Assembly (NCBI GenBank): GCA_052033835.1
Contig: JBPOJG010000025.1
Span: 1,763-65,762, forward strand
Reading direction: 5' to 3'
DNA length: 64,000 bases
Source: Spirochaetota bacterium
Lineage (GTDB): Bacteria; Spirochaetota; Leptospiria; Leptospirales; Leptospiraceae
The translations under genes were made by a program, and so were the position numbers. Positions within the stretch are counted from its first letter, which is position 1. The number at the start of each line of letters is the position of its first letter. The notes beneath the pieces are model-generated. The model was given only the letters and a program-made list of their open reading frames with translations. It did no database searches and was not told the DNA's origin. This document shows positions 8,027-55,781 of the stretch, piece after piece.

Positions 8027-8130
8027 GAGAATCCTTCCTTCCTAAATCAAAAATCTTCCTCATTTAGAGTCAACCGCTTTTCCTCAAATTCACTGCTTGA
8101 CTGATAAAAGAGACGTTTATAATCAGCCAT

Positions 8131-9222
8131 ATGCAGACAATTTGGGGCGGAACAGCAAAAAAGTTAAAAGGCAATTGCCTTGTGATCGGTGCATTCATTT
8201 CGGAAGGCGACAATGTGTGGACTGTTGAAGAAAAGAAATCGACCTGGGCGGATGTAGAGAAGGCAATGAACTGGATTTCCGAACAGGCCAAAGAATACGA
8301 TACAGAGGTCAGTTTTGAGCTGCTTCCAGTCAATTTGGAAGAAGGGAGCGAAGAAGAGGCAGGGGATGCGATTATTGACAGACTGCCTCGCCTGGCAGAT
8401 GATGTAAAGCTCAAGAACAAGGCGGTGGAGCAGGCCTGCATTGAGCTGGGTTATGAGTCGGTGACTGATTTTTATCACTCTCTCATCGAAGGATACTCAG
8501 ACTACAGCGTGCATTTTATGCTGCTTCTGAATGCAGATGACAGATCGTATATGACCACATGTCCCATAGACGATGAAAAGAAATTTCTCGAGCTGAATAT
8601 GGTGTTCAAGAACAACGGGAAGATCAATTCTTTTGTGTTGGCTCATGAAACACTTCATGCATACAGTGCGATGGATCTTTACAATGTTGGCGGAAGTGAA
8701 GAGGGAAAAACTGCAGAAGATGCTTCCAAAGAAAAATGTCCAAACGAAGTGATGTGTTCTTATCAGCATGATGTTTCCGATTCTGCTGTTTCTGATTATA
8801 CAGCATTTCTGGTTGGCTGGCATGATGAACCGGAAGACTGGTATGCTGAAATCACCCAGCCTCACAATAAGGCAAGACTGGAATTCATTATGAATTCATT
8901 TTCCTATTTTGACGATGACGGAAATCTTTCAGTAGAAAGCGAGGAAGAAATTCTCAAGTATTCCTATGAAGGAGGCGAATTTACTAGAATCCGTCTCAAT
9001 GAAGACGACAATCTGATTCAGTGGAGACACTATGACAATGAAACCGAGGAGGAAGAAGAATACTGGGAAACTTTAAAAGATGCAAACTATTATTATCTGG
9101 AAGGCAAATTTGTGCATACCAACATTACAGTTCCAGTCAGTTCAGTCGGGCAGGGTTATATTCTGTATGATGTTGGCGGTAAGTATGAACCCTGGGTGCA
9201 GATGACTCAGATGGAAACCTGA
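8131..9222 (+). CDS. HExxH (zincin-like) protein of an unassigned family, paralogue A
   Basis: 363 aa, no signal peptide. Shares WGGTAKKLKGNC, AHETLHAYSAMDLYN, NEVM and TAFLVGWHDEPEDWY with the ORFs at 53403 and 55782. Confidence 0.75.
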   Translation: MQTIWGGTAKKLKGNCLVIGAFISEGDNVWTVEEKKSTWADVEKAMNWISEQAKEYDTEVSFELLPVNLEEGSEEEAGDAIIDRLPRLADDVKLKNKAVEQACIELGYESVTDFYHSLIEGYSDYSVHFMLLLNADDRSYMTTCPIDDEKKFLELNMVFKNNGKINSFVLAHETLHAYSAMDLYNVGGSEEGKTAEDASKEKCPNEVMCSYQHDVSDSAVSDYTAFLVGWHDEPEDWYAEITQPHNKARLEFIMNSFSYFDDDGNLSVESEEEILKYSYEGGEFTRIRLNEDDNLIQWRHYDNETEEEEEYWETLKDANYYYLEGKFVHTNITVPVSSVGQGYILYDVGGKYEPWVQMTQMET

Positions 9223-9262
9223 ATGTGCAGCGTCAGGTGAGAGGTCTGCATCAGAGATAAAA

Positions 9263-10822
9263 ATGCTGAACTGGAAAACGGAAGAATCCATATACAATTT
9301 TATAGTAAGCAGTCTTGATTCTTCAGGCAAACTGAAAGAGTCAGGGATGGAGCTTCCTGACGAACCGAAGACGGAAGCCGGTCTTCGATATGCTCCCGGA
9401 ATGGCAGATGCTGTTTTCGGGAATGCTGAATCTGCACTCTCAGATGAGGAGCTTGAAGAGTTTTCTGAACTGATATTGCGTTCAGCATTGGGAGATGAAG
9501 AGTCTGAGAGCAGGCTGTACGAAAATGTATGCTCCAGATACAGTGTCATCTCAATCATTGACAGAGTTTTGGGGAAACTGGAAGAGGACAGCTTCAGTCT
9601 GAAGGAAAATCTGGCAGTAACGGCAGCTGATTTTGCCTTCAAGTCCGCAGACAGAAATGCAGTAAAGTTCGGAATAGCTCTTCTCGGTTTCTGCAGAAGC
9701 AAAGATGACCTTGATGGAATCAAAACACTCGGCCTTCATGATGAATTTACATTATTTGCAACCGTAGCTGTAATGAATATATCATCTGATACGGAAAAAG
9801 ACCTTCTGGAAATTGCAAAGAAGGCAGAGGGCTGGGGCAGAATACAAAGTGTTCAGAGACTTGCTGAAATAGTGCATTCTTCTGAAACAGAAGACTGGCT
9901 TGTATATGAAGGCTATAAGAACAGTATTATGTATGAGTATCTTACCTACATTGCAGCAGTTCACGGAAAACTCTATGAAAGACTCTGTGTTCCCAAAATT
10001 GACAGACGGCTTTTTGAATCTGCAGGAGAAATCATTGAAGGGCTGATTTCCGGAGGTCCTGCTGAAGATATCTCCGATTATGACCGTGCCGCCATGACAG
10101 TAGGACAGTATATTCGGCATTCCATTCTTCTTGCAGAAGAACTGCAGGATTTTATTGTTCTGCATTCTATTAAAGATTTTCTGGAAGAAATCAGAGATGA
10201 TATACAAAATCATGAAAGAAATGGCTGGAATCAGGACAATATTGCAGACTGCCTGATTGACATCAACTCTGTTACCAGACGGTCTGACTGGAAAAAGAAA
10301 ACTGAAGATGCACTTGACAGTCCTCGCCTGTCTGTTTTTTTCAAAGGAAAAATTGCCGCATCCATTCTGGGAATAAACTATTGGGAAAATGTCTGGGTGC
10401 GTCTCAAAGAAAATCCGGAAAATGTTTCCCTCTGGTCAGATGCAGTGAATACTGCCCCTCCTGAAATGACAGATGCCCTCATTGAATTGTCTTTGAAATC
10501 GCTTCCTCTGGAGCGTCTGGCATCCGGGCCGGCTGACAGTGTCGGACTTGGTGAAAATTATGCATATTATATGTGTCTGGAATATCTGATTACTTATCTT
10601 GGAGGTTTTCCCGGAAGAGGTGATCAGCTGATTCTGTGCGGACTTCAGGCTCCCGTCACAAGAACAAGAAATATGTGTGTGATGACTCTTGGCAGATGGG
10701 GCAGGGAAAACTGGAGTGAGACAATTCGGCAGGCGGTGCAGAATCTTTCAAAAATTGAACCGAATCCCAGAACAAAAAGCAATCTCGAAAAACTCCTTCT
10801 AGGTGAAAAGCAGGTCTGGTAA
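9263..10822 (+). CDS. Hypothetical helical (HEAT-like?) protein following HExxH paralogue A
   Basis: 519-aa uninterrupted ORF starting 40 nt after paralogue A. Composition suggests an alpha-helical protein. No catalytic motif recognised. Confidence 0.65.
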   Translation: MLNWKTEESIYNFIVSSLDSSGKLKESGMELPDEPKTEAGLRYAPGMADAVFGNAESALSDEELEEFSELILRSALGDEESESRLYENVCSRYSVISIIDRVLGKLEEDSFSLKENLAVTAADFAFKSADRNAVKFGIALLGFCRSKDDLDGIKTLGLHDEFTLFATVAVMNISSDTEKDLLEIAKKAEGWGRIQSVQRLAEIVHSSETEDWLVYEGYKNSIMYEYLTYIAAVHGKLYERLCVPKIDRRLFESAGEIIEGLISGGPAEDISDYDRAAMTVGQYIRHSILLAEELQDFIVLHSIKDFLEEIRDDIQNHERNGWNQDNIADCLIDINSVTRRSDWKKKTEDALDSPRLSVFFKGKIAASILGINYWENVWVRLKENPENVSLWSDAVNTAPPEMTDALIELSLKSLPLERLASGPADSVGLGENYAYYMCLEYLITYLGGFPGRGDQLILCGLQAPVTRTRNMCVMTLGRWGRENWSETIRQAVQNLSKIEPNPRTKSNLEKLLLGEKQVW

Positions 10823-53402: not shown

Positions 53403-54470
53403 ATGGTTATCTTTTGGGACGGATCAGCAAAAAAACTCAATGGGAAATGTATGATCATTGTTCTTTTCGTATCCAGAAAGGATAAACCTTGGAAGAAGAA
53501 AGCCAGGAAACGCGCAATGCAGAGTCTGGAAAAAGGAATCGACTGGATTAAGAACGAGTCAAAGAAATACAAAGTAAAGCTTGATTTTGATTTTATTTGC
53601 CTCAATATGGATGAACATATTTTCATTAAAAAAATTCCTAAGATTGAAGCTCCCTATGAAGATATGGAAGTTGTCATGTTCAAGGTTTTGAAAAAGCTCG
53701 GATACGAATCTCCTGAGGATTTTTATGAAAAAATGAGTATAGAATACAAAGACACAAGTTTTCATATCATCTTTTTTGCAAATGAAAAGGGAAGACCTTA
53801 TATGCATTATGTGGATATGAACAATGAAAAGAAGATGCTTGAATTTAATTTGATTTTCAAGGAAAATGGAAAGATTGATCCGATGACTGTTGTCCATGAA
53901 ACACTTCATGCTTACAGTGCTGTTGATCTCTACAACGTGAAAGAAACTAAAAAAGCTCAGAAAATTTCAGACCGGGTTGAAAAAAAATTTCCAAATGAAG
54001 TGATGCTCTGCGCTTCTGAGGATATTGAAAACCCTGAACTTTCTGAGCTGACCGCATTTCTGATCGGATGGCACAATAAACCGAAAGACTGGTATGCTTC
54101 TATGATACAGCCGGACGATCAGGAAGAGGTGGATTTTCTTCTGAAACATCATGAAAGCTTTGATGAAAAAGGATTTGTAATTATAAAAAAAGAGAAAGAA
54201 GTTCTTTGGTACGAATCTGATGAATTTACCATAACTAGGATAGAAATTAATGATAATCCTGAACTTGTTCATTGGAAGCAGGTAGATAAAAAAACAAAAG
54301 AGACTGTCGAATATTGGGAAAACAGTCAGGACAGCTATTATTATAATATGACAGATAAAAAGTCTCTTCTTACAATTGCAATTCCCAAAAGAAAAAAGGG
54401 ATACTGTTACAAAGAGGATGCTGAAGGCGACTATATTAAGACAGTTAAGGTAAGGAAAATCAGTACCTGA
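53403..54470 (+). CDS. HExxH (zincin-like) protein of an unassigned family, paralogue B
   Basis: AGGAG 7 nt upstream. MVIFWDGSAKKLNGKC, VHETLHAYSAVDLYN, NEVM, TAFLIGWHNKPKDWY. Confidence 0.75.
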   Translation: MVIFWDGSAKKLNGKCMIIVLFVSRKDKPWKKKARKRAMQSLEKGIDWIKNESKKYKVKLDFDFICLNMDEHIFIKKIPKIEAPYEDMEVVMFKVLKKLGYESPEDFYEKMSIEYKDTSFHIIFFANEKGRPYMHYVDMNNEKKMLEFNLIFKENGKIDPMTVVHETLHAYSAVDLYNVKETKKAQKISDRVEKKFPNEVMLCASEDIENPELSELTAFLIGWHNKPKDWYASMIQPDDQEEVDFLLKHHESFDEKGFVIIKKEKEVLWYESDEFTITRIEINDNPELVHWKQVDKKTKETVEYWENSQDSYYYNMTDKKSLLTIAIPKRKKGYCYKEDAEGDYIKTVKVRKIST

Positions 54471-54478
54471 ATAATTAA

Positions 54479-54510
54479 CTTTACGCACTTCGTGTTTCAG
54501 GTGAGTGAGA
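54479..54510. repeat. Modular intergenic repeat, half module A
   Basis: ctttacgcacttcgtgtttcaggtgagt lies 8 nt after the paralogue B stop and matches the right half of the 35733 and 44575 hairpins. Confidence 0.7.
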
Positions 54511-54627
54511 GATGCAGTGATCCTGCCCTCAAAGTCTTTCTCGTTCACTCTGCGGAATATCTTTTCATAAAATAAAGTCGCTCAGCTGCTCTTAAAAAAA
54601 ACTTTCCTTGTCCTGTTCATCTCCTCC

Positions 54628-54882
54628 TCAGTGCTGAACAGGCTTGAATGCAAATGCGATCTGTTTTCCTGAAACATTTTCAGAAACTTTCATATCAACA
54701 TAGCTTGAACGCATTACTACAACTGGATCATCATCAAGGAATAAAGAATATACCTCTTTTAATAAAGCAGGAGAATTAAAAACTTCTTTTATTACATTTT
54801 CTGCTTCGCCTACTGAAGTTCGTTTTCCACCTGACAGTAGTTTTTTAATTTTTCCTTTCATGATATATATGCCTTCCCCCAT
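54628..54882 (-). pseudogene. N-terminal fragment of a HEAT-repeat (AlkD-like) protein
   Basis: The 84-aa ORF LSGGKRTSVGEAENVIKEVFNSPALLKEVYSLFLDDDPVVVMRSS follows the N-terminal pattern of ~220-aa HEAT-repeat proteins. It is truncated after about 70 aa. Confidence 0.35.
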
Positions 54883-54989
54883 TTACTGAACAAAAAAAAC
54901 TTATTTCCCAAAACAAATTATTTTCAGCTTCTTTAAATAGGAAGAAACAGAAAAACTCTGATCTTCTTTCTCCACACGCTGATTTCCTT

Positions 54990-55600
54990 TTTATGCCTGG
55001 TTCAGTTTCTGTCAAGCACTTCCTCTAGGAAGCCTTGGTGTCCAAATACGCTTCAGCAGGACGAAGCTTCAGTGCCTTGCCTCTCCCTTCAAAAACTGTG
55101 TCAATTTCGGACTCCCGTAGAGGGGATGTCTTGCATATTCACGTTCAATCAGATTCATTATCATTATATTGTATTCCGACTCTCCGACCGGATTGAAATA
55201 AAAACGTGACCGAGAGAGGCCGAGAAGCTTGCACTGCTTCTGTATCGGCAGTCAGCTCTCAAGTTCAATAAGGCTTTTCCTTTCCGACTGGGTCAGTTCA
55301 GAAGTCTTTTTAAGATAATCATTCTCAACTTTCAGCTTCCGGATTTCGCGGTAAAGATCATCTATCTTCTTTTAGGATTCCTCCATCTCTTTCCCGTCTG
55401 TCTTCATGAACATCTGAGGAAATTTCTCGACAGCTTCCTTCTTCCATTTCAAAATCATATTTGAATGAATTTTGCAGTCTGAGGACAGCTTACCTATTGT
55501 CCTCACGTCCCGTATCGCTCCAAGGCAACCTTCGCTCTGAATGCAGGCTCTTAGTTTCTTCTTCCTCTCATTGCTTCTCCTTTCTCTGGATTTGCAATTT
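54990..55600 (-). mobile_element. Decayed IS3-family transposase remnant (orfA plus the first ~60 codons of orfB)
   Basis: My minus-strand translation gives EPAFRAKVALE / AIRDVRTIGKLSSDCKIHSNMILKWKKEAVEKFPQMF...KKIDDLYREIRKLKVENDYLKK...IQKQCKLLGLSRSRFYFNP...MIMNLIEREYARHPLYGSPKLTQFLKGEG. It is interrupted by TAA and TGA stops and frameshifts, and no intact ends are seen. Confidence 0.75.
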
Positions 55601-55652
55601 TTTTATACCTTTTTTTTGCTTTTTTACTGTCTCTTTTTTGAGGGGAAACTAT

Positions 55653-55700
55653 AAATTGAATGATGATTGTAACTACGAAGTTACGATGAGCAGTTACGAT
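55653..55700. repeat. Modular intergenic repeat, short module E copy
   Basis: aaattgaatgatgattgtaactacgaagttacgatgagcagttacgat is the 45771 copy minus its internal B-like insert. Confidence 0.75.
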
Positions 55701-55781
55701 TTTTCTCATATTGATCACTGACTTTCCTTGACAGTTTCTTCTGTGCAATTAATATGTCTTCCAATTTATTCAGGAGCATTT

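What the first reader, a model, noticed from the sequence alone, without database searches (positions are those of the whole stretch)
8131..10822. Unassigned cytoplasmic HExxH protein (paralogue A) paired with a 519-aa helical protein
The 363-aa protein has a strictly conserved HE(T/A)LH(A/V)YSA(M/V)DLYN block, which is an HExxH zincin signature. It also has a conserved N-terminus, M-x-x-(I/F)-W-(G/D)-G-(S/T)-AKKL-x-G-x-C, a possible third ligand in (N/K)EVM, and TAFL(V/I)GWH(D/N)(E/K)P. There is no signal peptide. I cannot place it in any peptidase family from memory. Only this copy is followed, 40 nt downstream, by a large helical protein. On sampled lines this pair looks more GC-rich than the very AT-rich paralogue B.
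Basis: partly seen in the sequence, partly recalled or inferred. Interest (0 to 1): 0.6.

Follow-up and report, generated by a model that had tools for sequence, protein, structure and literature searches.

The report
Leaderless metzincin-type protease, incidental HEAT neighbour
The 363-residue protein is a probably intracellular zinc protease from an undescribed family that folds like the ADAM/snake-venom (metzincin) proteases, and the big helical protein beside it is an unrelated HEAT-like scaffold that neighbours it only in this one genus.

Summary
Both ORFs, the 40-nt spacer, all quoted motifs, the missing leader and the GC contrast (43% vs 34.6%) are real.

No Pfam, NCBIfam, PADLOC, PHROG or PDB sequence match is significant. 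An exhaustive HMMER search does link residues 7-240 to about 400 unnamed protein clusters. Most are about 260 aa with signal peptides.

These clusters share HExxHxxGxxD-x-Y (Asp in 151/153, Tyr in 151/153) and a Met about 24-26 residues later. That is the extended metzincin zinc site with the rare Asp third ligand.

A confident AlphaFold model (pLDDT 89.7) matches only metzincins at the top: ADAM-8, ADAMTS-5, snake-venom enzymes and fragilysin. The third ligand is therefore D182.

The window's three paralogues belong to one monophyletic clade. Its marks are no leader, Ser for Gly at +3, and a private 100-aa eight-strand beta domain.

The 519-aa neighbour is a HEAT/ARM-like alpha-solenoid from a separate family found mostly in Bacteroidota. 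The two genes are adjacent only in this genus (2 of 114 Leptospiraceae genomes), and neither has conserved neighbours.

Verdict: a new metzincin-type family, function untested; the pairing is probably incidental.

The parts
8097..8123 (+). Promoter-like element TTGACT-15 nt-TATAAT. The -10 box ends 7 nt before the ATG and there is no Shine-Dalgarno sequence, so the mRNA may be leaderless or have a very short leader. It lies in the 104-nt divergent region shared with uspA.
   Evidence: Read from the sequence. The region is 95-98% identical to the orthologous locus L004, whereas gene A itself is 79% identical. The scan tool did not report it because the spacer is 15 nt, outside its 16-18 nt rule. 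Function is inferred, not shown.
8131..9222 (+). Gene A: 363-aa leaderless two-domain metzincin-type zinc peptidase candidate.
   Evidence: ORF. AlphaFold2 pLDDT 89.7, pTM 0.85. dN/dS 0.075 against the orthologue. The public gene call starts 17 codons later (P0001, 346 aa), but the N-terminal block is conserved in all homologues, which supports 8131 as the start.
8131..8910 (+). Catalytic domain (residues about 1-260). Order of elements: beta1, backing helix, beta2, two extra helices, beta3-beta5, active-site helix 167-177, Met-turn region, C-terminal helices.
   Evidence: Secondary structure of the model. Foldseek top hits are ADAM-8 4dd8 (E 7e-4, prob 0.99), ADAMTS-5, acutolysin, bothropasin and fragilysin. 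Residues 7-240 match 397 cluster representatives.
8644..8682 (+). Zinc-site motif H172-E173-T-L-H176-A-Y-S179-A-M-D182-L-Y184. Inferred roles: H172, H176 and D182 as zinc ligands, E173 as general base, Y184 as a possible 'tyrosine switch'.
   Evidence: Invariant in the clade. Across the superfamily, Gly at +3 in 136/153 (Ser 12), Asp at +6 in 151/153 and Tyr at D+2 in 151/153. Roles are assigned by analogy with metzincins as described in PMC12237041.
8740..8754 (+). P204-N-E-V-M208: Met-turn candidate (superfamily consensus P-x-[D/S/E]-[I/V]-M).
   Evidence: M208 is invariant in alignments A1-A3. A Met lies 19-28 residues after the Asp in most members, with modes at 24 and 26. The E206 position varies as D/S/E.
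8914..9219 (+). C-terminal beta domain of about 100 aa with eight consecutive strands, specific to the leaderless clade. Its role (substrate recognition, or regulation or wrapping of the catalytic domain) is inferred.
   Evidence: Strands 271-361. It is found only fused to this catalytic domain in 114 Leptospiraceae genomes. It is duplicated in P0134 and P0010. Only weak lipocalin/FABP-like fold hits, prob 0.7 or less.
9223..9262 (+). 40-nt spacer between gene A and the partner. No terminator is predicted, and the spacer is not conserved in the orthologous locus.
   Evidence: L004 has about 137 nt of unrelated sequence here.
9263..10822 (+). 519-aa all-alpha HEAT/ARM-like solenoid, a member of a separate family of about 535-aa proteins found mostly in Bacteroidota. 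Some sources label members 'limonene hydroxylase'.
   Evidence: 398 or more homologues at 41-49% identity. AlphaFold2 pLDDT 91.3 with about 30 helices. Foldseek hits are PP2A-A, AP-2 beta, beta-catenin and importins at high probability but low TM-score. No Pfam, NCBIfam or PADLOC hit. dN/dS 0.125.
53403..54470 (+). Paralogue B (355 aa, 35% identical to A, GC 34.6%).
   Evidence: Sister of C in the catalytic-domain tree, support 98.
55782..56840 (+). Paralogue C (352 aa from the conserved Met, 42% identical to A). It lies 1.3 kb downstream of B, across IS3 debris.
   Evidence: The B-C tandem is conserved in the sister genome (L005). dN/dS 0.074.

Best explanation
Gene A, like paralogues B and C, encodes a leaderless and therefore probably cytoplasmic zinc metalloendopeptidase. 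It belongs to an undescribed family of the metzincin type.

Inferred mechanism:
- The N-terminal domain of about 260 residues has the adamalysin-like metzincin fold.
- Zinc would be bound by H172, H176 and D182 of HExxHxxSxxD.
- E173 would polarise the catalytic water.
- Y184 would sit next to the metal as in 'tyrosine-switch' metzincins.
- M208 would form the Met-turn under the site.
- The C-terminal eight-strand beta domain, private to this clade, most likely selects substrates or restrains and stabilises the catalytic domain. That would stand in for the pro-peptide this family lacks.

The clade arose once, from a superfamily of mostly secreted single-domain enzymes of about 260 aa.

The 519-aa downstream gene is a HEAT/ARM-like scaffold protein from an independent family that entered this genus. 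It may be co-transcribed with A here, but it is not a general partner of the protease.

Shown: conservation, fold class, phylogeny, distribution and purifying selection. Inferred: metal binding, catalysis, cellular location and the role of the beta domain.
For: - Motif: HExxH is invariant. Across the superfamily HExxHxxGxxD holds in 151/153 cases, Tyr at D+2 in 151/153, and a Met follows about 24-26 residues later.
- Literature: metzincins are defined by HExxHxx(G/N)xx(H/D) plus a Met-turn and a C-terminal helix. Asp is the rare ligand of snapalysins and thuringilysins. A Tyr two residues after the ligand is described in the igalysin IgAse, and equivalent 'tyrosine-switch' residues are known in astacins, snapalysins and serralysins (PMC12237041; PMC3890501).
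- Fold: the model has pLDDT 89.7 and pTM 0.85. All twelve best Foldseek PDB hits are metzincins, with probabilities from 0.75 to 0.99 (nine at 0.96-0.99): M12B adamalysins and fragilysin.
- Weak sequence echoes: sub-threshold hits cover residues 162-216, to the M6 domain TIGR03296 in 6/24 members, to SVAGG in 11/24, and to Reprolysin_4/5 and DUF2268.
- No leader. In contrast, 77/100 single-domain relatives have a hydrophobic leader, some with lipoboxes.
- Clade: monophyletic, 19/19 members, support 99. The beta domain is found only in fusion.
- Selection: dN/dS 0.075.
- Pairing is local: the partner is adjacent only in L004. It occurs in 2/114 family genomes against 5/114 for the HExxH clade. 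Four distant HExxH loci and five partner loci show no shared neighbours. Three partner-bearing Bacteroidota genomes have no HExxH relative. The spacer is not conserved.
Against: - No sequence profile reaches significance against any known peptidase family, so the clan assignment rests on one predicted structure plus the motif.
- TM-scores are modest (0.41-0.51 on the target length) and the best E-value is only 7e-4.
- I could not read the model coordinates. The convergence of H172, H176 and D182, the position of M208 and the place where the beta domain docks are all unverified.
- The clade has Ser where metzincins have Gly or Asn.
- There is no experimental evidence for zinc binding, proteolysis or location. 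A leaderless protein could still be exported by a non-classical route.
- The A-partner adjacency has survived substantial divergence (dS about 1.3-1.5). That is weak evidence that the pairing is not meaningless.
Confidence: 0.6

Rival explanations
1. A and the 519-aa solenoid form a genuine two-component module in this genus. The HEAT-like protein would act as an adaptor, inhibitor, chaperone or substrate of the cytoplasmic protease, and the two would be co-transcribed from the conserved promoter upstream of A.
For: The genes share a strand, lie 40 nt apart and have no predicted terminator between them. The adjacency is retained in the second species of the genus despite dS above 1. Both genes are under purifying selection. 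A cytoplasmic protease without a pro-peptide needs some form of control. An earlier scan note describes metzincin plus HEAT-containing partner pairs elsewhere (a lead only).
Against: The partner is absent from 5 of 6 related HExxH loci, and from the three other Leptospiraceae genomes that carry the clade. Paralogues B and C have no such neighbour. The partner family lives in Bacteroidota genomes that lack any HExxH relative, in five different contexts. The spacer is 40 nt here and about 137 nt of unrelated sequence in the sister genome. The partner shows no TIMP-like or other beta front end, being all helices.
Confidence: 0.17
2. The protein is an exported toxin or effector rather than a housekeeping cytoplasmic enzyme. 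It would leave the cell by a non-classical route, for example on a contact-dependent or type VI-like system, and the paralogue diversity would reflect an arms race.
For: There are 2-4 divergent paralogues per genome, and the distribution is patchy (5/114). Some homologues sit among toxin-antitoxin modules and IS debris. Three members weakly touch Peptidase_M91, an effector family. Other leaderless HExxHxxGxxD proteins in this scan were read as T6SS effectors (leads only).
Against: No T6SS sheath gene (PF05943) in any of the six genomes that carry the clade, while the E. coli control rang. No adjacent immunity-like gene is conserved. No PADLOC or PHROG hit. There are no recognisable trafficking domains. 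dN/dS of 0.07 is ordinary purifying selection.
Confidence: 0.1
3. It is a Glu-zincin. The third zinc ligand would be E206 of the (N/K)EVM block, and the similarity to metzincins would be superficial.
For: E206 is invariant among the 12 closest homologues and lies 30 residues after the second His, within the Glu-zincin spacing range.
Against: The equivalent position is Asp 70, Ser 37 and Glu 35 across the superfamily, whereas D182 is 151/153 and the following Met is nearly universal. No Glu-zincin appears among the top fold matches, which are all metzincins.
Confidence: 0.04
4. It is a zincin-fold protein that is not a peptidase. It would either hydrolyse a non-peptide substrate or act as a binding protein that merely keeps the metal site.
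For: No activity has been shown for any member of the roughly 400 clusters. Related minimal zincins (M94, M95) have no demonstrated peptidase activity (PMC3890501). Some tandem proteins carry a degenerate first copy (P0163).
Against: The complete catalytic set (two His, Glu, Asp, Tyr, Met) is nearly invariant over very deep divergence. That is the pattern of an active enzyme, and the nearest folds are all endopeptidases.
Confidence: 0.09

Closest known systems
Adamalysins/reprolysins (MEROPS M12B: ADAM-8, ADAMTS-5, snake-venom metalloproteinases) and fragilysin (M10C)
   Same: These are the best structural matches of the predicted catalytic domain. They share the five-strand sheet, backing helix, extra helices between beta2 and beta3, active-site helix carrying HExxH, downstream Met and C-terminal helix.
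   Different: The third ligand here is Asp, not His. There is no significant match to any Reprolysin Pfam model (best E 0.037). There is no pro-domain, no signal peptide in this clade and no disintegrin or Cys-rich modules. Sequence identity is 8-13%.
Thuringilysins (MEROPS M6, immune inhibitor A) and snapalysins (M7)
   Same: Both are metzincins that use the rare HExxHxxGxxD site with an Asp ligand plus a Met-turn (PMC12237041). The M6 domain model TIGR03296 and the SVAGG model give recurrent sub-threshold hits over residues 162-216.
   Different: Scores are far below the cut-offs (12-20 bits against 110-150). M6 enzymes are large, secreted and multidomain. Snapalysin is a secreted enzyme of about 130 residues with a minimal lower subdomain. 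Neither appears among the top 50 fold matches.
Igalysins (M64, IgAse of Thomasclavelia ramosa)
   Same: Asp third ligand, a Tyr two residues after it, and a downstream all-beta 'wrapping' domain that packs on the catalytic domain and is needed for folding (PMC12237041). This is a possible analogy for the C-terminal beta domain here.
   Different: Igalysins have an extra residue before the Gly (HExxHxxxGxxD) and a second, structural zinc site. They are membrane-bound extracellular enzymes. No sequence or fold match was seen here.
Mini-zincins (MEROPS M94, Pfam PF06262, Acel_2062) and archaemetzincins (M54)
   Same: They are precedents for intracellular, leaderless zincins. M94 carries HExxHxxGxxD (PMC3890501).
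   Different: M94 is about 115 residues, ends soon after the Asp and lacks a Met-turn. M54 uses a His ligand and a Cys4 zinc finger. Neither Pfam model is hit.
HEAT/ARM alpha-solenoids (PP2A A subunit, AP-2 beta, beta-catenin, importin-beta), for the 519-aa neighbour
   Same: An all-helical stack of paired helices along the whole length, with Foldseek probabilities up to 1.00.
   Different: TM-scores are only 0.2-0.3 and identity 9-15%. No HEAT or ARM Pfam model is hit. It is bacterial, about 535 aa, a stand-alone gene and of unknown function. The 'limonene hydroxylase' label on some relatives has no support in this fold.

Membership tests
Metzincin clan (MEROPS MA(M)) | Extended zinc motif HExxHxx(G/N)xx(H/D) | tested here: met
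   Gene A has HETLHAYSAMD. The superfamily has Gly at +3 in 136/153 (Ser 12, mostly this clade) and Asp at +6 in 151/153. The Ser in this clade is a small-residue departure from the strict G/N rule.
Metzincin clan (MEROPS MA(M)) | Conserved methionine (Met-turn) beneath the zinc site, downstream of the third ligand | tested here: inconclusive
   M208 is invariant, and a Met lies 19-28 residues after the Asp in about 140/151 members.
Metzincin clan (MEROPS MA(M)) | Catalytic-domain fold: five-strand sheet, backing helix, active-site helix and C-terminal helix | tested here: met
   The order of secondary-structure elements in the pLDDT 89.7 model fits. The top twelve Foldseek PDB hits are all metzincins, with probabilities up to 0.99, but TM-scores are only 0.41-0.51.
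Metzincin clan (MEROPS MA(M)) | Zinc-dependent endopeptidase activity | not testable with these tools
   No member of the superfamily carries a name or a published assay.
Adamalysin/reprolysin family (M12B) | Significant match to the Reprolysin Pfam models and a His third ligand (HExxHxxGxxHD) | tested here: not met
   The best Reprolysin_4 and Reprolysin_5 E-values are 0.037 and 0.094, in single members and below cut-off. The ligand is Asp.
Thuringilysin / immune inhibitor A family (M6) | Match to TIGR03296 above its 110.8-bit cut-off | tested here: not met
   Only 6/24 members hit, with a best E of 0.014, far below the cut-off.
Mini-zincin (M94, PF06262) | Domain of about 115 aa ending shortly after HExxHxxGxxD, with no Met-turn | tested here: not met
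   No PF06262 hit. The catalytic domain is about 260 aa and has a conserved Met and further helices.
Glu-zincins (MA(E)) | Conserved Glu third ligand 18-70 residues after HExxH | tested here: not met
   The only candidate, E206, is D/S/E across the superfamily and Ser in 37/142.
Conserved protease-partner operon (A plus the 519-aa protein) | Adjacency and co-occurrence across the phyletic range of either family | tested here: not met
   The genes are adjacent in 2 of 7 loci, both in the same genus. The partner is in 2/114 family genomes against 5/114 for the HExxH clade. Partner-bearing Bacteroidota genomes have no HExxH member. The two families do not co-occur in a 201-genome sample.
HEAT/ARM repeat proteins (for the 519-aa neighbour) | Alpha-solenoid of stacked helical hairpins, and a match to HEAT or ARM sequence models | tested here: inconclusive
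   The fold criterion is met. The sequence-model criterion is not met, since no HEAT or ARM Pfam hit appears at E of 1 or better.
T6SS metallopeptidase effectors | A type VI secretion apparatus encoded in the genome | tested here: not met
   No TssC/VipB (PF05943) in six genomes that carry the clade, while the control rang in E. coli.

The most novel reading that the evidence does not exclude
The leaderless clade is a new kind of intracellular metzincin. Its private eight-strand beta domain would act as a built-in latency or wrapping module in place of a pro-peptide. In this genus it would have recruited a horizontally acquired HEAT solenoid as an adaptor or inhibitor, under a strongly conserved promoter shared with uspA and linked to stress. 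That would make it a stress-triggered regulated-proteolysis module of a type not described in bacteria.
Probability: 0.1. Interest if true: 0.65.

Novelty: new variant of a known kind. Interest (0 to 1): 0.4.

Why it matters
A superfamily of about 400 sequence clusters (at 50% identity) has a complete, deeply conserved metzincin-type Asp-zinc site, yet it has no Pfam or NCBIfam model and is labelled 'hypothetical' wherever a source names it. Defining it would add a family to peptidase clan MA and give these proteins an annotation.

The leaderless branch with the beta domain adds to the short list of probably intracellular metzincins. It raises a concrete question: how is a pro-peptide-less adamalysin-like protease kept harmless in the cytoplasm?

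The finding also corrects two likely annotation traps. One is the 346-aa truncated gene call. The other is the 'limonene hydroxylase' label on an all-helical scaffold family.

It is not a surprise of kind. Undescribed HExxHxxGxxD families keep turning up, and nothing here yet points to a new mechanism.

Tried and rejected
- Curated libraries gave nothing significant for either protein: Pfam, NCBIfam, PADLOC and PHROGs.
- PDB by sequence: nothing for the single protein. The family profile gave only a spurious Rab11 hit at E 0.01 over a non-catalytic stretch.
- The viral structure library (BFVD) had no match at E of 0.001 or better.
- A profile-profile test against bona fide metzincins failed. 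I tried to harvest Reprolysin_4 (PF13583) and M6 (TIGR03296) domains from related genomes to build comparison profiles. Both searches were silent, the named control genomes included, so they say nothing about absence and no profile could be built.
It was rerun with A1.
- Haem lead for the partner: it was raised by HmuY and a TonB receptor in one locus and hemF and hemB in another. Three further loci showed unrelated contexts, so I dropped it.
It shows no similarity to the partner at E = 10 and no Pfam hit.
- T6SS-effector reading: no sheath gene in six genomes.
- Active-site geometry and docking of the beta domain could not be measured, because model coordinates are not exposed to the Python box.
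Full report
**Observation**

Gene A is at 8131-9222 (+, 363 aa) and the second gene at 9263-10822 (+, 519 aa), with a 40-nt spacer and no predicted terminator between them.

The window's genome is a 6.05-Mb Leptospiraceae-type assembly. It holds three paralogues of the 363-aa protein, all on this contig:
- A at 8131-9222
- B at 53403-54470 (35% identity to A)
- C at 55782-56840 (42% identity to A)

The GC remark is correct: A is 43.1%, the partner 43.3%, B 34.6%, C 40.4% and the window 39.7%.

There is no room for an upstream leader, because the open frame extends only 10 codons beyond the ATG. Met1 aligns in all 12 close homologues. The public gene call for this protein (P0001, 346 aa) starts 17 codons too late, because the N-terminal block MxxFWGGSAKKLxGxC is conserved in every relative.

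**Sequence placement**

Nothing curated recognises either protein. Pfam, NCBIfam, PADLOC, PHROGs and the PDB sequence set give only sub-threshold noise.

The word-indexed search finds just 11 relatives of A, all about 355 aa and mostly from Leptospiraceae, including Leptospira idonii. The exhaustive HMMER scan of 1.84 billion cluster representatives goes much further: 397 hits at E of 1e-3 or better and 83 at 1e-10 or better.

Beyond the closest dozen, these hits cover only residues 7-240 of A. Most such proteins are 240-300 aa, and the domain starts near residue 30, behind a hydrophobic leader or lipobox. By a simple hydropathy test, 77 of 100 single-domain members have a leader. Others carry the domain at the end of longer proteins. 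One family fuses it to a DEAD/Lhr-type helicase (P0200). Several are tandem duplications whose first copy has lost the HExxH (P0163). Where a source names any of them, the name is 'hypothetical protein'.

**The zinc site**

Across 156 representatives, 152 carry HExxH. The extended pattern is the informative part:
- +3 after the second His: Gly in 136 of 153 motif instances, Ser in 12 (mostly the Leptospiraceae clade)
- +6: Asp in 151 of 153
- two residues after the Asp: Tyr in 151 of 153
- 19-28 residues after the Asp (modes 24 and 26): P-x-[D/S/E]-[I/V]-M

So the signature is HExxHxxGxxD-x-Y ... PxxΦM.

The literature defines metzincins by HExxHxx(G/N)xx(H/D), a Met-turn and a closing C-terminal helix. 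Asp is the rare third ligand of snapalysins and thuringilysins. A Tyr two residues after the ligand is described in the igalysin IgAse, and equivalent 'tyrosine-switch' residues are reported for astacins, snapalysins and serralysins (PMC12237041; PMC3890501).

In the superfamily that position is Asp 70, Ser 37 and Glu 35. A Ser cannot be an obligatory metal ligand. D182 is therefore the ligand, and the Met of 'EVM' is the Met-turn candidate.

**Fold**

An AlphaFold2 model built on a 16-sequence alignment is confident (mean pLDDT 89.7, pTM 0.85). The order of elements is:
- strand 14-25
- long helix 32-54
- strand 60-66
- two helices (92-105 and 111-119)
- strands 126-136, 140-145 and 152-161
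- helix 167-177, which carries H172, E173 and H176
- helix 190-202
- M208
- helices 222-227, 238-241 and 244-259
- eight consecutive strands, 271-361

Foldseek against the PDB gives only metzincins in the first twelve places. These are ADAM-8 (E 7e-4, prob 0.99), ADAMTS-5, acutolysin, bothropasin, BmooMPalpha-I, Bacteroides fragilis metalloproteinase-II (a fragilysin), ADAM22 and adamalysin II. Further fragilysin-family (BFT) entries follow at ranks 14 and 15.

TM-scores on the target length are modest (0.41-0.51), and the query includes a second domain. I therefore treat this as a clan-level assignment, not a family-level one.

Some sequence echoes point the same way but are all below threshold. 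They are the M6 domain TIGR03296 in 6 of 24 members, the SVAGG model in 11 of 24 over residues 162-216, and single hits to Reprolysin_4/5 and DUF2268.

I could not read the coordinates. The convergence of the three ligands and the position of M208 are therefore inferred, not measured.

**The clade in this window**

A tree of 155 catalytic domains places all 19 proteins that have the C-terminal extension on one side of a branch with support 99. This tree was built with FastTree, so it is only a guide to topology. B and C are sisters (support 98), and A sits with its orthologue elsewhere in the clade.

The clade has three marks: no leader, Ser instead of Gly at +3, and the beta domain of about 100 aa. 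That domain occurs in Leptospiraceae genomes only as part of these proteins. It is duplicated in a few homologues (P0134, P0010). Its only structural neighbours are weak lipocalin/FABP-like hits.

The clade is present in 5 of 114 Leptospiraceae species genomes (3 of 14 genera), always in 2-4 copies. It is absent from an even sample of 200 other genomes of the phylum. One MAG labelled Rikenella also has it.

A and C are under ordinary purifying selection, with dN/dS of 0.075 and 0.074 against the sister genome.

**The 519-aa neighbour**

It has at least 398 homologues. A handful are at 74-85% identity, and the rest drop to 41-49% in proteins of about 535 aa from Chitinophaga, Snuella, Kordia, Cellulophaga, Tenacibaculum and many metagenomes. 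Some bear the UniRef name 'limonene hydroxylase'.

Its model is confident (pLDDT 91.3) and entirely helical, with about 30 helices in hairpin pairs. It matches HEAT/ARM solenoids such as PP2A-A, AP-2 beta, beta-catenin and karyopherins at high probability but low TM-score. No sequence model of any repeat family is hit.

A cofactor-free alpha-solenoid is an implausible monooxygenase. The label goes back to work on a Bacillus enzyme summarised in PMC4097962, and I could not verify the homology. I regard the name as unsupported for this family.

**Is it a pair?**

- Among seven loci that encode a relative of A, the partner follows only in L004, the same-genus orthologue.
- In 114 Leptospiraceae genomes the partner occurs in 2, both of this genus, against 5 for the HExxH clade.
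- Four distant HExxH loci show unrelated neighbours, twice toxin-antitoxin modules.
- Five Bacteroidota partner loci also differ from one another.
- Three partner-bearing Bacteroidota genomes have no member of the HExxH superfamily at all.
- In a 201-genome Bacteroidota sample the two families are rare (1 and 2 genomes) and do not coincide.
- The spacer is 40 nt here and about 137 nt of unrelated sequence in L004.

In favour of some local link, the adjacency has survived a synonymous divergence of about 1.3-1.5, and the partner is constrained (dN/dS 0.125). I put a genuine functional coupling in this genus at about one in six.

**Mechanism**

My best reading, at about 0.6 confidence, is a cytoplasmic metzincin-type endopeptidase:
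- zinc on H172, H176 and D182
- E173 as the general base
- Y184 as transition-state helper
- M208 as the hydrophobic floor

The family has no pro-segment, because in secreted relatives the domain begins straight after the leader. The clade-specific beta domain is therefore the natural candidate for substrate selection or for restraining or stabilising the catalytic domain. The wrapping domains of igalysins and thuringilysins offer an analogy. The high pTM suggests the two domains have a fixed mutual orientation. This last step is inference.

The export-as-toxin rival loses weight because none of the six genomes that carry the clade has a T6SS sheath gene, while the control rang. No immunity-like neighbour is conserved either.

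**Expression signals**

The 104-nt divergent region between uspA and gene A is 95-98% identical to the sister genome, against 79% for gene A and 91% for uspA. It is not a dispersed repeat in the window.

It contains TTGACT-15 nt-TATAAT, with the -10 box ending 7 nt before the ATG and no Shine-Dalgarno sequence. This hints at a leaderless or near-leaderless transcript and at shared regulation with a stress gene.

**Verdict**

The protein is not unplaceable. It is a member of an undescribed, un-modelled family of the metzincin type that uses the rare Asp ligand, in a leaderless two-domain version. The neighbouring helical protein is an independent HEAT-like family and most likely an incidental neighbour, at best one specific to this genus.

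Novelty is at the level of a new family or variant within a known clan, and interest is moderate.

Noticed in passing
window 8027-8130: The divergent intergenic region between uspA and gene A is 95-98% identical to the sister genome, while the flanking gene A is only 79% identical. It holds TTGACT-15 nt-TATAAT, with the -10 box ending 7 nt before the ATG and no Shine-Dalgarno sequence. This suggests a leaderless transcript and regulation shared with a universal stress protein gene.
   Followed up: partly
window 9263-10822 and relatives P0038, P0067: Some UniRef entries label the partner family 'limonene hydroxylase', yet the confident model is a pure HEAT/ARM-like alpha-solenoid with no cofactor-binding domain. 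The name looks like a propagated misannotation.
   Followed up: partly
window 8131-8181: The public gene call for gene A (P0001, 346 aa) starts 17 codons downstream of the ATG at 8131. It cuts off the N-terminal block that is conserved in every homologue, secreted ones included.
   Followed up: yes
P0200 (954 aa, metagenomic), P0225: The same HExxHxxGxxD domain is fused to the C-terminus of a DEAD/Helicase_C/Lhr-type helicase. This is a second, independent cytoplasmic context for the superfamily, and an architecture reminiscent of defence proteins.
   Followed up: no
P0163, P0167, P0173, P0237, P0243, P0246 (575-591 aa): These secreted proteins contain two tandem copies of the domain. In P0163 the first copy has lost the HExxH (it reads VYHLLSLFGAGF), giving a pseudo-protease plus protease arrangement.
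   Followed up: no
window 54471-55781: The 1.3 kb between paralogues B and C holds IS3-type OrfA debris on the minus strand (about 55072-55602) and an 84-codon HEAT-like fragment (54631-54882, minus strand). The fragment is unrelated to the 519-aa partner. The B-C tandem itself is conserved in the sister genome (L005) with a much shorter gap of about 325 nt.
   Followed up: partly
window 53403-54470 vs 55782-56840: Sister paralogues B and C differ by 6 points of GC (34.6% against 40.4%) although they sit 1.3 kb apart. B's orthologue (P0009/P0135) is similarly lysine-rich, so the compositional shift is old and belongs to the lineage.
   Followed up: no
L009 / genome G306 (MAG labelled Rikenella microfusus): A MAG assigned to Bacteroidota carries both a full-length leaderless protein with the beta domain (39% identity to A) and a 255-aa catalytic-only relative. 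This is either horizontal transfer or a binning error.
   Followed up: no
L013 (5448-5882, 7913-8529) and L016 (8295-9504): In two metagenomic homologue loci the HExxH gene sits among toxin-antitoxin modules (PIN, RHH-PIN, two BrnT-BrnA pairs). This points to accessory, variable genome regions.
   Followed up: no
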